Shown here: positions 48,284 to 50,505 of the stretch, piece by piece
Position numbering within the stretch: position 1 is the first letter of the stretch
Layout: the number at the start of each line of letters is the position of its first letter
From: Planctomycetota bacterium
GTDB taxonomy: Bacteria > Planctomycetota > UBA1135 > GCA-002686595
Direction: 5' to 3'
DNA: 64,000 nt
Assembly: GCA_016795205.1 (NCBI GenBank)
Contig: JAEUHZ010000045.1
Coordinates: 1 to 64,000 of the forward strand
Position numbers and translations under genes: made by a program
The notes under the pieces: model-generated
The model's input: the letters and a program-made list of their open reading frames with translations, nothing else
What the model was told of the DNA's origin: nothing
Database searches by the model: none

Positions 48284-49735
48284 TCAGGCCGAGAGATCGA
48301 GGATGCGCCGCGAGAGGTCGGTCGCCAGCAAGCCCTCGGGATCCACGCGGCGCTTGAGCGCCAGGAAACGCTCCAAGGCCTGCGCGGGCCACATGCGTCG
48401 CGCGTCCTCGCGGCCGATGACCAGGTCCTTCGCGGGGTAGAAGCGTCCCCCCGCCGCGAGCGTGAGACGCGTGATGCGGTCGGCGAGCCGCCACAGGTCC
48501 GCGCGCGTGTCGGGATGCACCTTGTAGTCGAGCGCCAGGCTCCAGCCGTCGAGGCCGTGCGTGAGCAGGAACGGGTCCGGCCGGTGGCGCTTCAGGACGG
48601 CGAGGTAGGGCACGTGGCCCGCCGCGCGGCTCTCGGCGAGGATCGCCTGGAACGTGTCGTGCGCGCGGGCGGCGGGCACGAACGGCTGGACCTGGATCAG
48701 CCCGCGCTTCTCCGTGCGACCGTAAGCCCATTTCCAGTTCGGGACGTAGTCGAGCAGGAAGGCGAAGGCCGCGTGCGACTGGCGGTAGGGCCCCTGCGCT
48801 TCCTCGTGCATCCCGAGCGTCCACTTGGCGGCGTTCAACAGGCGCATGCCGGGCGCATGGTTCAGCAGCCGCAGCGCGCGCCACACCTCGCCTTTCGACA
48901 CGCCCAGGATGGCGCGCGGCAGCTCCTGGTGCGCGACGGCCAACGTGCGCTCGGGCGCCGCGTCCTCGCCCGGCGCGAGGTGTCGCGCGGCGTGCACGAG
49001 CCCGCGGCCCGAGGCCGCGCCGCCCGCGAAGGCGTCGATCCAGGCCACCAGGTAGTCGTAGCGCGCGCGCCGCGACTCCATCCACTCCAGGGCCTCGCGC
49101 AAGTCGCGCGTGCTCTTCGCGGTGACCTCGACGTCGCCCGAGTGGACGCGCTTCGTCTCGATCACGACGCGCGTCACGACGCCCAGCATGCCGAAGCCGC
49201 CGATGGCGGCGTGGAACAGCTCGCTCTCGTGCCCGCGCGAGGCCGTGACCAGCTCGCCCGAGGGCAGCACCAGGTCGAGCTCGCGCACGTGCTCGCCGAT
49301 CGTGCCCACGGCGTACTGGTTCTTGCCGTGGATGTTCATCGCCAACGCTCCGCCCAGCGTCGGGTACATCGTCCCGCTCACGACCTTGGGCCAGAAGCCG
49401 CGCGGCAGCGCGTGCTTCCACAAGGCCTCGATCGTGACCCCGCCCTGGCACTCGGCGGCCCCGCTGTGCGCGTCGAAGGAGAGGATGCGGTCCAAGCGCG
49501 TCGGCTCGAGCACGTAGCCGCGGTCGGCGGAGCTGGCGTCGCCGTAGCTGTTGCCGCCGCCGCGCAGGGCCAGCGTGGTCCGCTCGCGGCGCGCCAGCGC
49601 GAGGGCCTCGCGCACGGCCTCGACGTCGCGCGGCCGCAGGACGCGCGCGTGCGCGCCGTGGGCCATGCCCCAGCCCTCGACGTACTCGTAGCCGCGCGCG
49701 AGCCGCGGGAAGGTCAGCGGCGTCCTGGCCTTCAC
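48284..49735 (-). CDS. FAD-linked oxidase of the DprE1 (decaprenylphosphoribose 2'-oxidase)-like family. GTG start overlaps the upstream stop.
   Basis: N-terminal YVEGWGMAHGAHARVLRPRDVEAVREAL aligns to Mtb DprE1 [28 protein letters not shown]. FAD-binding PCMH domain LRGGGNSYGD. C-terminal substrate-binding domain. Confidence 0.65.
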   Translation of the reverse strand: MKARTPLTFPRLARGYEYVEGWGMAHGAHARVLRPRDVEAVREALALARRERTTLALRGGGNSYGDASSADRGYVLEPTRLDRILSFDAHSGAAECQGGVTIEALWKHALPRGFWPKVVSGTMYPTLGGALAMNIHGKNQYAVGTIGEHVRELDLVLPSGELVTASRGHESELFHAAIGGFGMLGVVTRVVIETKRVHSGDVEVTAKSTRDLREALEWMESRRARYDYLVAWIDAFAGGAASGRGLVHAARHLAPGEDAAPERTLAVAHQELPRAILGVSKGEVWRALRLLNHAPGMRLLNAAKWTLGMHEEAQGPYRQSHAAFAFLLDYVPNWKWAYGRTEKRGLIQVQPFVPAARAHDTFQAILAESRAAGHVPYLAVLKRHRPDPFLLTHGLDGWSLALDYKVHPDTRADLWRLADRITRLTLAAGGRFYPAKDLVIGREDARRMWPAQALERFLALKRRVDPEGLLATDLSRRILDLSA

Positions 49736-50505
49736 ACGTTCATCTTCTTGAACAGGAACGACGGGATGCAGCGGATGACGCTGCCCACGAGCCACCAGCG
49801 GCGTGGCACGTAGCGCACGTTGGCTCGTCCGCGCGCGGCACGCAGCACGAGCTCCGCCGCGCGATCCGCGCTGATCAGCCAGAACAGCCCCGGCAGTCCC
49901 TTGGTCATGTCCGTGTCGACGAAGCCGGGCTTGATCGTGGTCACGTGGACGCCGTGCTCCGCGAGGCGGTTGCGCAGCGCCTCGAGGTAGGTGTTCATCG
50001 CGGCCTTGGTCGTGCAGTAGACCGGGTTGCCCTTCCGCCCGCGGTCGCCGGCGATCGACGAGATCCCGACGATCGTGCCCGAGCGCTGCGTCTGGAACAG
50101 CCGCGCGGCGGCGTTGCACCAGGCGATGCAGCCCCCCACGTTCACCGCCAGTTGATCCAGGTCCTTCTCCGTGTCGTACTCGGCCGGACCGACCTTGGGC
50201 ATGATCCCGGCCGCGTACACCAGGAGGTCGAGGCCGCCGAGCTCGCCGACGAGCGCCGCGAAGAGCTCGGGGACCTCGTGCGCGCGCGCCGCGTCGTGCG
50301 CGCGCACCAGGATCCGGCCGCCGGAGAGCGTCGCGGCGTCGGAGAGGTCGCGCGCCAGGTCGTCGAGCAGCTCGCGGCGGCGCGCGACGGCGGCGACGGA
50401 GTAGCCCTCGGCGACCAGGCGCCTCACGAGCGCGGCGCCGATGCCCGAGCTCGCGCCGACGACGAGCGCGCGCCCCGCACCCCGGACCGGTGTGTTCGCA
50501 GTCAT
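49732..50505 (-). CDS. SDR-family reductase, DprE2-like partner
   Basis: [18 protein letters not shown] (TGxxxGIG), catalytic [11 protein letters not shown]. 257 aa. Immediately upstream of and coupled to the DprE1-like gene. Confidence 0.65.
   Translation of the reverse strand: [257 protein letters not shown]

What the first reader, a model, noticed from the sequence alone, without database searches (positions are those of the whole stretch)
48284..50505. DprE1/DprE2-like FAD-oxidase plus SDR pair, translationally coupled, in a non-actinobacterial-looking context
The 483-aa FAD-linked oxidase aligns at its N-terminus (..GWG..) and FAD domain to decaprenylphosphoribose 2'-oxidase DprE1. Its immediate upstream partner is a 257-aa SDR, like DprE2. 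Together these enzymes epimerise a polyprenyl-phospho-ribose at C2 to make the arabinofuranose donor for cell-wall arabinans in Corynebacterineae. The pair here is coupled by a GTGA overlap and flanked by apaH and a large CRTAC1-like lipoprotein, with no arabinosyltransferase nearby. This may indicate an undescribed polyprenyl-phosphate sugar epimerisation feeding an unknown glycoconjugate.
Basis: partly seen in the sequence, partly recalled or inferred. Interest (0 to 1): 0.6.

Follow-up and report, generated by a model that had tools for sequence, protein, structure and literature searches.

The report
DprE1/DprE2-like epimerase gene pair
A planctomycete carries a tightly coupled two-gene unit related to the mycobacterial enzymes that turn lipid-linked ribose into arabinose; it belongs to a widespread, uncharacterised sister group of those enzymes and probably makes a lipid-linked sugar donor for an unknown envelope glycan.

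Summary
On the minus strand, a 257-aa SDR (50505..49732) and a 483-aa FAD oxidase (49735..48284) overlap by GTGA. Both have strong coding signatures. The window comes from a 74% GC Planctomycetota MAG. DprE1 is by far the closest characterised relative of the oxidase: full-length PDB E about 1e-53 (next family 1e-14), and the top 49 structural matches are all DprE1. The DprE1 active-site residues are conserved. It is not an ortholog, though. It scores 279 bits against the NCBIfam cutoff of 500, and it falls in a separate clade (100% bootstrap) from mycobacterial and Gram-negative DprE1s that sit next to a phosphoribosyltransferase. This clade occurs in at least 10 phyla. The SDR nearly always sits directly upstream, the reverse of the canonical order, and the pair usually stands among unrelated genes. 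Informative neighbours are rare: a phosphoribosyltransferase plus GT-C-like membrane proteins in Ignavibacteria, and Dpm1/AglJ-like GT2 synthases in Leptospira and one deltaproteobacterial MAG. The 64-kb window holds no ribose-lipid synthase, GT2 or GT-C. The most likely function is a two-step epimerase acting on a polyprenyl-phosphate sugar. The sugar and the final glycan are unknown. I rate it a moderately interesting new variant of a known kind.

The parts
49732..50505 (-). Short-chain dehydrogenase/reductase (257 aa), the DprE2-like ketoreductase partner and first gene of the pair
   Evidence: Pfam adh_short E 1e-43. Best NCBIfam match is PRK07102 at 197.9 bits (cutoff 267); the DprE2 model gives 121.7 bits (cutoff 250), aligned over the full length 12-256. 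GASSGIG cofactor motif, Ser...YCTTK catalytic motif and a DprE2-type C-terminal tail [28 protein letters not shown]. GC3 is 0.95. A homologous SDR lies directly upstream of the oxidase in 81 of 89 related loci, and 3 more loci hold a fragment cut by the contig edge.
48284..49735 (-). FAD-dependent oxidase (483 aa), DprE1-like, second gene of the pair
   Evidence: Pfam FAD_binding_4 E 1e-29. NCBIfam DprE1 model 278.7 bits over residues 19-478 (cutoff 500). PDB DprE1 E about 1e-53, full length. AlphaFold model pLDDT 85.6; the top 49 PDB fold matches are all DprE1, TM 0.75-0.81. Mtb Y60, H132, K134, W230, Q334, Q336, K367 and K418 are conserved; C387 is Ala, N385 is Ser and F369 is His. GC3 is 0.97.
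49732..49735 (-). GTGA overlap of the SDR stop (TGA) and the oxidase start (GTG), suggesting translational coupling
   Evidence: Read directly from the sequence. In related loci the two genes overlap or lie only a few bases apart.
50506..50648 (.). Divergent intergenic region between the SDR and the FG-GAP/TPR gene; presumed promoter region of the pair
   Evidence: Inferred from gene positions only. The sigma-70 consensus scan found no site here, and no convincing terminator was found in 47900-51000.

Best explanation
The two genes encode a two-enzyme epimerase that works like mycobacterial DprE1/DprE2 on a sugar carried by a polyprenyl phosphate at the cytoplasmic membrane. The FAD oxidase removes a hydride from the 2'-hydroxyl of the lipid-linked sugar. 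The conserved Lys436 (Mtb K418) and the His136/Lys138 pair line the pocket next to the flavin. This gives a 2'-keto intermediate. The SDR then reduces the keto group with NAD(P)H from the opposite face and inverts C2. The most likely substrate and product are polyprenyl-phospho-beta-D-ribofuranose and polyprenyl-phospho-D-arabinofuranose. That product would be flipped across the membrane and used by a GT-C type transferase encoded elsewhere to decorate an envelope glycan. Shown here: homology of both proteins, conservation of the active site, the fixed pairing of the two genes across phyla, and the pair's membership of a separate clade. Inferred: the lipid-linked nature of the substrate, the identity of the sugar, the direction of the reaction and the final glycan.
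For: DprE1 is the only close characterised relative of the oxidase in sequence and fold. Of 18 DprE1 active-site and inhibitor-contact residues (list from PMC6128881), 13 are identical. Most of the others take residues also seen in Gram-negative DprE1-like enzymes that sit next to a phosphoribosyltransferase. The SDR's best family match is PRK07102. The SDR partners in the UbiA-GtrA-oxidase-SDR clusters of Rhizobium and Tateyamaria match that model above cutoff, at 344-364 bits. The SDR shares the DprE2-type C-terminal tail, which an unrelated SDR in the same window lacks. The oxidase and SDR trees give matching clades, with 100% and 92% bootstrap. The SDR is the only neighbour conserved across phyla. 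Within the clade, two Ignavibacteria-type loci place the pair beside a phosphoribosyltransferase that scores above the NCBIfam cutoff (270-273 bits, cutoff 234) and four GT-C-like membrane proteins. Other loci place it beside glycan genes: Wzy_C, MatE, Polysacc_synt and LA_3751/2 glycosyltransferase. Leptospira, which carries the clade, has LPS with 20-36% arabinose (PMC4628369).
Against: Both proteins fall below the equivalog cutoffs (279 vs 500 bits; 122 vs 250 and 198 vs 267). The clade is separate from every DprE1 that has a known or context-supported role. No phosphoribosyltransferase, phosphatase, GtrA, GT2 or GT-C lies in the 64-kb window. Only 2 of 89 related loci have a phosphoribosyltransferase within 10 kb. 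In Leptospira and one deltaproteobacterial MAG the same-strand neighbour is a Dpm1/AglJ-like GT2, which uses nucleotide sugars and not PRPP. The clade has invariant His where DprE1 has Phe369, Ala/Asn/His at Tyr314, and a longer helical insert over the active site. By pairwise identity the SDR is no closer to actinobacterial DprE2 (23%) than to an unrelated SDR (24%), and generic SDRs outrank DprE2 in the PDB search. No biochemical data exist for any clade member.
Confidence: 0.55

Rival explanations
1. The chemistry is the same but the substrate differs. The pair epimerises, or oxidises and then reduces, a polyprenyl-phospho-hexose or another sugar that a Dpm1/GtrB/ArnC-type GT2 makes from a nucleotide sugar. 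The substrate is not ribose made from PRPP. The product, for example a C2 epimer such as mannose from glucose, would be a donor for periplasmic GT-C transferases.
For: In two Leptospira species the operon is SDR, oxidase, a 9-TM Agl23/MT1671-like membrane protein, then a GT2. The GT2's best matches are AglJ, dolichyl-phosphate hexose transferase, PpgS and ArnC. All four genes are on one strand, with gaps of 4 and 19 nt downstream of the oxidase. In deltaproteobacterial MAG L057, a fusion of a sugar-1-phosphate nucleotidylyltransferase with the same kind of GT2 lies directly upstream on the same strand. These same-strand links are tighter than the convergent phosphoribosyltransferase link in Ignavibacteria. 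The clade-specific pocket changes (His for Phe369; Ala/Asn/His for Tyr314) could reflect a different sugar.
Against: This rests on two lineages out of 89 loci. The window has no GT2 at all. The GT2 scores are far below the family cutoffs (114 vs 325 bits), so its polyprenyl-phosphate acceptor is inferred. The rest of the DprE1 pocket is conserved. A phosphoribosyltransferase link exists in the same clade. I found no precedent for epimerisation of a lipid-linked hexose.
Confidence: 0.25
2. The oxidase acts on a non-sugar lipid alcohol, or on a polyol side chain of a membrane lipid such as an isoprenoid or hopanoid polyol. Together with the SDR it inverts or modifies a secondary alcohol.
For: The pair is usually solitary among housekeeping genes, with no glycan genes nearby, in Armatimonadota and most Planctomycetota. 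The VAO family is chemically versatile. The hydrophobic C-terminal tail of the SDR suggests membrane association.
Against: The polar pocket residues of DprE1 are all conserved. Whenever informative neighbours do occur, they are glycan or polyprenyl-phosphate sugar genes. No lipid-biosynthesis neighbour recurs.
Confidence: 0.08
3. The oxidase is a soluble sugar, alditol or aldonolactone oxidase, like other VAO-family enzymes, and the SDR is an unrelated neighbour.
For: There are weak matches to sugar 1,4-lactone oxidase and related models (62.7 bits), and a faint ALO hit in one homologue.
Against: Those matches cover only the N-terminal FAD domain and lie far below cutoff (63 vs 397 bits), whereas the DprE1 match is full length at 279 bits. 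The next structural family is 12 orders of magnitude weaker in E-value. The SDR is fixed next to the oxidase in 84 of 88 testable loci across at least 10 phyla, and its tree matches the oxidase tree.
Confidence: 0.04

Closest known systems
[quoted passage not shown]
   Same: Both have a two-component design of an FAD oxidase plus an SDR reductase encoded side by side. The oxidase is homologous over its full length (30-34% identity, PDB E about 1e-53, TM about 0.8). Y60, H132, K134, W230, Q334, Q336, K367 and K418 are conserved. The SDR has the DprE2-type C-terminal tail.
   Different: The oxidase lies in a separate clade (100% bootstrap) and both proteins score below the equivalog cutoffs. The gene order is reversed, SDR first. 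Cys387 is Ala, which predicts benzothiazinone insensitivity, and Phe369 is His. A longer helical insert replaces the 268-285 loop. The host is a Gram-negative planctomycete with no arabinogalactan genes in view.
Gram-negative and Bacteroidota DprE1/DprE2-like clusters linked to a UbiA-type phosphoribosyltransferase (Rhizobium etli, Tateyamaria, Burkholderia stagnalis and Chondrinema plasmids; P. aeruginosa pilin D-Araf pathway)
   Same: These are non-actinobacterial oxidase plus SDR pairs. The SDR family is PRK07102, which is also the best match of the window's SDR. Ala replaces Cys387 in most of them.
   Different: Those clusters run UbiA/phosphoribosyltransferase, (GtrA), oxidase, SDR, with GT39/GT87/DUF2723 transferases nearby. 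Their oxidases score 417 bits on the DprE1 model and group with Mtb DprE1. The window pair is 26-34% identical to them, has the opposite order, and has none of those neighbours.
Three-component periplasmic pentofuranose glycosylation systems with an auxiliary epimerase (Kelly et al. 2024, PMC11127046)
   Same: The concept matches: a polyprenyl-phosphate pentofuranose donor is made in the cytoplasm, epimerised on the lipid, flipped, and used by a GT-C. The Ignavibacteria members of the window clade look like such a system.
   Different: The synthase, flippase and GT-C are not found in the window. The Xylf epimerase of that study is a single GalE-like SDR, not an oxidase/reductase pair. Its Araf examples use canonical DprE1/E2 homologues.
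Other VAO/PCMH-family flavoenzymes (sugar 1,4-lactone oxidases, cytokinin dehydrogenase, GlcD)
   Same: They share the FAD_binding_4 domain and the overall two-domain fold.
   Different: Only the FAD domain aligns. E-values are about 40 orders of magnitude weaker than for DprE1, and they have no conserved SDR partner.

Membership tests
[quoted passage not shown] | Two-domain VAO/PCMH FAD-binding fold with DprE1 as the nearest structure | tested here: met
   PDB phmmer E about 1e-53 over residues 19-478. The AlphaFold model (pLDDT 85.6) has DprE1 as all of its top 49 Foldseek hits, TM 0.75-0.81; the next family scores 1e-22.
[quoted passage not shown] | Score at or above the NCBIfam equivalog cutoff (NF053785, 500 bits) | tested here: not met
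   278.7 bits. A Leptospira clade member scores 265, and a phosphoribosyltransferase-linked Tateyamaria enzyme scores 417.
[quoted passage not shown] | Active-site residues Lys418, His132, Lys134, Tyr60, Gln334, Gln336, Trp230, Lys367 | tested here: met
   All are conserved in the window protein and in 34-35 of 35 clade members. The residue list comes from PMC6128881.
[quoted passage not shown] | Cys387, the benzothiazinone attachment site (not essential for catalysis) | tested here: not met
   Ala401 in the window and Ala in 35/35 clade members. Ala also occurs in 5 of the 8 canonical reference sequences used, a set that includes the two actinobacterial ones.
[quoted passage not shown] | Phylogenetic placement with functionally anchored DprE1 enzymes | tested here: not met
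   An NJ tree of 43 sequences splits the 8 canonical sequences from the 35 clade sequences with 100% bootstrap. The tree is unrooted or midpoint rooted and has no outgroup.
[quoted passage not shown] | Pathway context: polyprenyl-phosphate phosphoribosyltransferase, 5-phosphatase, GtrA-type flippase and GT-C arabinosyltransferases in the genome | tested here: inconclusive
   None is present in the 64-kb window. A phosphoribosyltransferase lies within 10 kb in 2 of 89 clade loci. The rest of the genome could not be searched, and P0001 is not on record for contig look-up. In M. tuberculosis the synthase gene is also not adjacent to dprE1 (general knowledge).
[quoted passage not shown] | Oxidation of polyprenyl-phospho-ribose to the 2'-keto intermediate | not testable with these tools
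   This needs an enzyme assay.
DprE2 / PRK07102 (2'-keto-pentofuranose reductase partner SDR) | Classical SDR cofactor motif and Ser-Tyr-Lys catalytic residues | tested here: met
   GASSGIG, SSIAG and YCTTK are read in the translation and aligned with the DprE2-like SDRs. adh_short E 1e-43.
DprE2 / PRK07102 (2'-keto-pentofuranose reductase partner SDR) | Family-specific C-terminal tail (about 25 residues, ...VYVPxxWxxVxxIIRxIPxxxFKKL) and full-length alignment | tested here: met
   The tail is present in the window SDR, the clade SDRs, Rhodococcus DprE2 and the Gram-negative partners, and absent from the unrelated SDR at 42834-43589. The HMM and PDB alignments to DprE2 run to residue 255-256, whereas generic SDR alignments stop near residue 205.
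DprE2 / PRK07102 (2'-keto-pentofuranose reductase partner SDR) | Score at or above the NCBIfam cutoffs (NF053786 250 bits; NF005489 267 bits) | tested here: not met
   121.7 and 197.9 bits. True Gram-negative partners score 344-364 bits on PRK07102.
DprE2 / PRK07102 (2'-keto-pentofuranose reductase partner SDR) | Encoded next to a DprE1-like oxidase | tested here: met
   The genes overlap by 4 nt. Adjacency holds in 84 of 88 testable loci, but with the SDR upstream, which is the reverse of the canonical order.
Sugar 1,4-lactone / alditol oxidases (VAO family) | Full-length match to the family model above cutoff | tested here: not met
   TIGR01678 gives 62.7 bits (cutoff 396.8) over residues 21-229 only. 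TIGR01679 gives 54.5 bits (cutoff 292).
Three-component pentofuranose glycosylation system (synthase + flippase + GT-C) | Synthase, flippase and GT-C encoded together with the epimerase | tested here: not met
   They are not in the window. The only transporter candidates are two generic EamA proteins at 46077-47012 and 54452-55400, whose best matches are amino-acid/metabolite exporters far below cutoff.

The most novel reading that the evidence does not exclude
The window pair represents a large, phylum-spanning clade of DprE1/DprE2-like enzymes. Members occur in Planctomycetota, Armatimonadota, Sumerlaeota, Chlorobiota/Ignavibacteria, Myxococcota, Acidobacteriota and Leptospira. On this reading the clade is not a ribose-to-arabinose epimerase. 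It is a general 2-oxidase/2-ketoreductase for polyprenyl-phosphate sugars, fed in at least some lineages by Dpm1/AglJ-type GT2 synthases. That would be a previously undescribed epimerisation of lipid-linked hexoses or other sugars, supplying periplasmic GT-C transferases.
Probability: 0.25. Interest if true: 0.7.

Novelty: new variant of a known kind. Interest (0 to 1): 0.4.

Why it matters
DprE1/DprE2 is best known as a tuberculosis drug target and as the only route to D-arabinofuranose donors. A deep sister clade that is nearly always a self-contained SDR-oxidase unit, and that is spread over at least ten mostly uncultured phyla, would have two consequences. Lipid-linked sugar epimerisation would be a much more general tool of envelope glycan synthesis than is currently assumed. 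It would also point to unknown arabinose-containing or other epimer-containing glycoconjugates in planctomycetes and their relatives. Leptospira is cultured, carries the clade in an operon with glycan genes, and has arabinose-rich LPS. That makes the question directly testable. Automated labels such as 'decaprenylphospho-ribofuranose 2-oxidase' on these proteins should be treated as unverified.

Tried and rejected
1. De novo clustering of all ORFs in 89 related loci, to find conserved neighbours. The large clusters other than the SDR were antisense or off-frame shadow ORFs lying over the oxidase and SDR.

2. ApaH as the missing 5-phosphatase. Rejected: it passes the ApaH equivalog cutoff, and it is adjacent only within Planctomycetota.

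3. EamA transporters as the flippase. They are present near the pair only in the closest planctomycete relatives, and their best matches are generic metabolite exporters. This stays as weak speculation.

4. The FG-GAP/TPR protein as a functional partner. It is found in 15 loci, all planctomycete or unclassified MAGs, so it fits lineage synteny.

5. Large multi-TM neighbours in ten further loci. These proved to be Fer4 proteins, EamA, MFS, AbgT, or had no family match. Only the MatE and Wzy_C proteins in Sumerlaeota relate to glycans.

6. Armatimonadota neighbours are housekeeping genes: fumarase, ThuA, Rex and PurH.

7. The promoter/terminator scan around the pair found nothing usable.

8. A literature search for DprE1 with Planctomycetes or Leptospira found no study of this clade.

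9. Contig look-up of the window's own oxidase returned 'not on record', so the rest of the 94.7-kb contig could not be read.

10. A first bootstrap run timed out and was redone with a faster distance routine.

11. I ran no further search on a phosphoribosyltransferase query. The 120-row output would be dominated by Bacteroidota/Ignavibacteria relatives and could not show presence in this genome.
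Full report
**The observation**

On the minus strand, an ATG at 50505 opens a 257-codon ORF that ends with TGA at 49734-49732. A GTG at 49735-49733 opens a 483-codon ORF that ends at 48284. The window is about 74% GC, so long spurious ORFs are common. These two frames, however, have GC3 of 0.95 and 0.97 with GC2 near 0.5, which marks real genes. The GTG is the only start codon upstream of the motif YEYVEGWGM. 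That motif is conserved in homologues and aligns with the GWG at the N-terminus of M. tuberculosis DprE1.

**The source organism and the surroundings**

An identical protein is recorded from a 'Planctomycetes bacterium' MAG on a 94.7-kb contig. I called 49 genes by codon-position GC and scanned all of them with Pfam. The window holds LpxB, rpsB-tsf-pyrH-frr, two GroEL genes with DnaJ/GrpE, ECF sigma factors, a Ser/Thr kinase and ThiC.

- No UbiA-family enzyme, GT2, GT-C (PMT_2 and similar) or GtrA is present.
- A tblastn search with a bona fide phosphoribosyltransferase found nothing.
- The convergent downstream gene (47506-48261) is ApaH, above the NCBIfam cutoff.
- The divergent upstream gene (50649-54011) is a 1120-aa FG-GAP/TPR protein.
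- Further out lie a 4HBT thioesterase, two EamA transporters and a NudE-like NUDIX hydrolase.

**The oxidase**

Pfam sees only FAD_binding_4. The best NCBIfam model is the DprE1 equivalog, aligned over residues 19-478 at 278.7 bits, below its 500-bit cutoff. The next model, sugar lactone oxidase, gives 62.7 bits over the FAD domain only. Against PDB sequences, M. tuberculosis and M. smegmatis DprE1 score E about 1e-53 over the full length, and the next family (cytokinin oxidase) scores 1e-14.

An AlphaFold model built on 38 homologues (pLDDT 85.6) has DprE1 as all of its top 49 structural matches (TM 0.75-0.81). The next hit is galactonolactone dehydrogenase at 1e-22.

I rebuilt Mtb DprE1 residues 13-458 from the printed alignment and confirmed the numbering against known landmark residues.

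- Of 18 active-site or inhibitor-contact residues (list from PMC6128881), 13 are identical in the window protein and nearly invariant in its clade. These include Y60, H132, K134, W230, Q334, Q336, K367 and K418.
- S228V, N385S and C387A take residues also seen in Gram-negative DprE1-like enzymes.
- F369H (34 of 35) and Y314A/N/H are specific to the clade.
- The region matching the disordered 268-285 loop of DprE1 is longer here and is predicted to be helical.

**The SDR**

It has adh_short with the GASSGIG and YCTTK motifs. Its best NCBIfam match is PRK07102 (197.9 bits, cutoff 267). The DprE2 model ranks fifth at 121.7 bits (cutoff 250) but aligns over the full length.

I showed what PRK07102 stands for. 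The SDRs encoded directly after DprE1-like oxidases in the UbiA-GtrA-oxidase-SDR clusters of Rhizobium etli and Tateyamaria score 344-364 bits on it, above cutoff, and 187-200 bits on the DprE2 model. So the window SDR's nearest named family is the Gram-negative DprE2-like partner.

It also carries the C-terminal tail ([28 protein letters not shown]) shared with Rhodococcus DprE2 and those partners. An unrelated SDR in the same window lacks it.

There is a caveat. Pairwise identity to actinobacterial DprE2 is only 23%, and generic SDRs outrank DprE2 in the PDB search.

**A separate clade**

The large protein search gave 3198 clusters with E <= 1e-10 among the 8000 candidates scored. The best 120 are all about 59-86% identical over the full alignment and come mostly from Planctomycetota. 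IMG labels some of them 'decaprenylphospho-beta-D-ribofuranose 2-oxidase'.

The scan of one genome per species found at least 587 genomes with a relative. The best 80 are 43-63% identical to the query. They come from Planctomycetota, Armatimonadota, Sumerlaeota, Chlorobiota/Ignavibacteria, Myxococcota, Acidobacteriota, three cultured Leptospira species and a few Proteobacteria.

Plasmid records supplied canonical comparators.

- Rhizobium, Tateyamaria and Burkholderia have UbiA-(GtrA)-oxidase-SDR clusters.
- Chondrinema has phosphoribosyltransferase-oxidase-SDR with GT39 genes.
- Rhodococcus has GtrA-oxidase-DprE2-AftA.

In an NJ tree of 43 sequences, these plus Mtb DprE1 separate from the 35 clade members with 100% bootstrap. 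The window protein is 26-34% identical to the canonical group. The SDR tree gives the same clade at 92%. Every canonical cluster has the order oxidase then SDR. The window clade has SDR then oxidase.

**Conservation of the pair and its context**

Across 89 loci, a homologous SDR lies directly upstream on the same strand in 81. In 3 more it is cut by the contig edge, one locus is untestable, and 4 lack it. No other neighbour is conserved across phyla. The remaining large clusters were shadow ORFs.

ApaH, NUDIX, EamA, 4HBT and the FG-GAP protein recur only among planctomycete relatives, so I read them as lineage synteny. Armatimonadota neighbours are housekeeping genes.

Informative contexts are rare but all point towards glycans.

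- In two Ignavibacteria-type loci, the pair abuts a phosphoribosyltransferase above the NCBIfam cutoff (270-273 bits, cutoff 234) and four 7- to 10-TM proteins of 509-569 aa, one with a PMT_2 hit.
- In two Leptospira species, the operon continues with a 9-TM Agl23/MT1671-like protein and a GT2. The GT2's best matches are polyprenyl-phosphate sugar synthases (AglJ, Dol-P-hexose transferase, PpgS, ArnC). A Wzy_C protein lies nearby.
- In a third Leptospira species, an LA_3751/2-family glycosyltransferase is adjacent.
- In a deltaproteobacterial MAG, a nucleotidylyltransferase-GT2 fusion lies directly upstream on the same strand.
- One Sumerlaeota locus reads MatE, oxidase, Wzy_C.
- One planctomycete locus has a Polysacc_synt flippase just upstream.

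Leptospira LPS is reported to contain 20-36% arabinose and about 20% xylose (PMC4628369).

**Interpretation**

The most economical reading is a DprE1/DprE2-type two-step C2 epimerase acting on a polyprenyl-phosphate sugar. The FAD oxidase makes the 2'-keto intermediate, and the SDR reduces it from the other face. Ribose to arabinose is the default guess. The pocket is nearly that of DprE1, and one lineage of the clade is linked to a phosphoribosyltransferase.

The tighter same-strand links to Dpm1-like GT2 genes in Leptospira and the deltaproteobacterial MAG leave room for a different lipid-linked sugar. So do the clade-specific His and the insert over the active site. For the window organism itself, nothing nearby identifies the sugar, the synthase, the flippase or the acceptor.

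A soluble-substrate oxidase is disfavoured by the full-length DprE1 homology and the fixed SDR partner.

**Comparison with what is known**

DprE1/E2 homologues outside actinobacteria are already established. They have been proposed for P. aeruginosa pilin arabinosylation (bioRxiv 10.1101/2020.04.19.049825) and for Araf-containing O-antigens within three-component systems (PMC11127046). 'Non-actinobacterial DprE1/E2' is therefore not new in itself.

What is not described, as far as the searched literature shows, is this sister clade with four features: inverted gene order, usual isolation from pathway genes, very broad phyletic spread, and occasional GT2 linkage.

I rate it a new variant of a known kind and of moderate interest. 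The key limits are three:

- The phylogeny has no outgroup.
- There was no genome-wide test for the synthase.
- No clade member has been studied biochemically.

Noticed in passing
L084:9071-14023 and L085:9000-14019 (Leptospira alstonii, L. gomenensis): A same-strand operon of SDR, DprE1-like oxidase, a 9-TM Agl23/MT1671-like membrane protein and a GT2 whose best matches are AglJ, Dol-P-hexose transferase, PpgS and ArnC. A Wzy_C protein lies nearby. It looks like a lipid-linked sugar system with a built-in epimerase, in a cultured genus whose LPS is rich in arabinose.
   Followed up: partly
L057:7741-11389 (deltaproteobacterial MAG): A 498-aa fusion of a sugar-1-phosphate nucleotidylyltransferase with a Dpm1/AglJ-like GT2 lies directly upstream of the SDR-oxidase pair on the same strand.
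   Followed up: partly
L078:9177-18844 and L077:931-9987 (Ignavibacteria-type MAGs): The SDR-oxidase pair is convergent with a block of four GT-C-like membrane proteins (509-569 aa, 7-10 TM) and a phosphoribosyltransferase above the NCBIfam cutoff. This is the only clade lineage seen with a full arabinan-like toolkit.
   Followed up: partly
L046:2453-8916 (Sumerlaeota MAG): The order is MatE transporter, oxidase, then a 1124-aa Wzy_C/TPR protein, with no adjacent SDR. It is one of four loci where the SDR partner is missing.
   Followed up: partly
window 12805-17670: Two tandem group I GroEL genes, followed by DnaJ, GrpE and a zinc-ribbon gene. In the first ORF, GroEL begins only at about residue 512 (near nt 14338). 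The 510 open in-frame codons upstream match nothing in PDB. They may be a high-GC artefact or may hide another gene such as groES.
   Followed up: partly
window 20648-26723 (- strand): Two adjacent proteins of about 1000 aa, built from CarboxypepD_reg / Ig-like repeats.
   Followed up: no
window 34020-35972: A 650-aa LpxB in which the LpxB domain begins only at residue 270. The N-terminal extension is unexplained, or the start may be over-called.
   Followed up: no
window 39435-41719 (- strand): An MreB/actin-like protein and a GGDEF-domain protein overlap by 4 nt, which suggests a coupled pair.
   Followed up: no
window 46077-56188, compared with L001, L003, L005, L008, L015, L016, L019: The gene order NUDIX, EamA, 4HBT thioesterase, FG-GAP/TPR protein, SDR-oxidase, ApaH, EamA is kept among planctomycete relatives that are only 55-65% identical. 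In L005/L006 the EamA gene sits directly upstream of the SDR on the same strand.
   Followed up: partly
window 37580-39370: A 596-aa protein with weak squalene-hopene-cyclase / prenyltransferase toroid-repeat matches.
   Followed up: no
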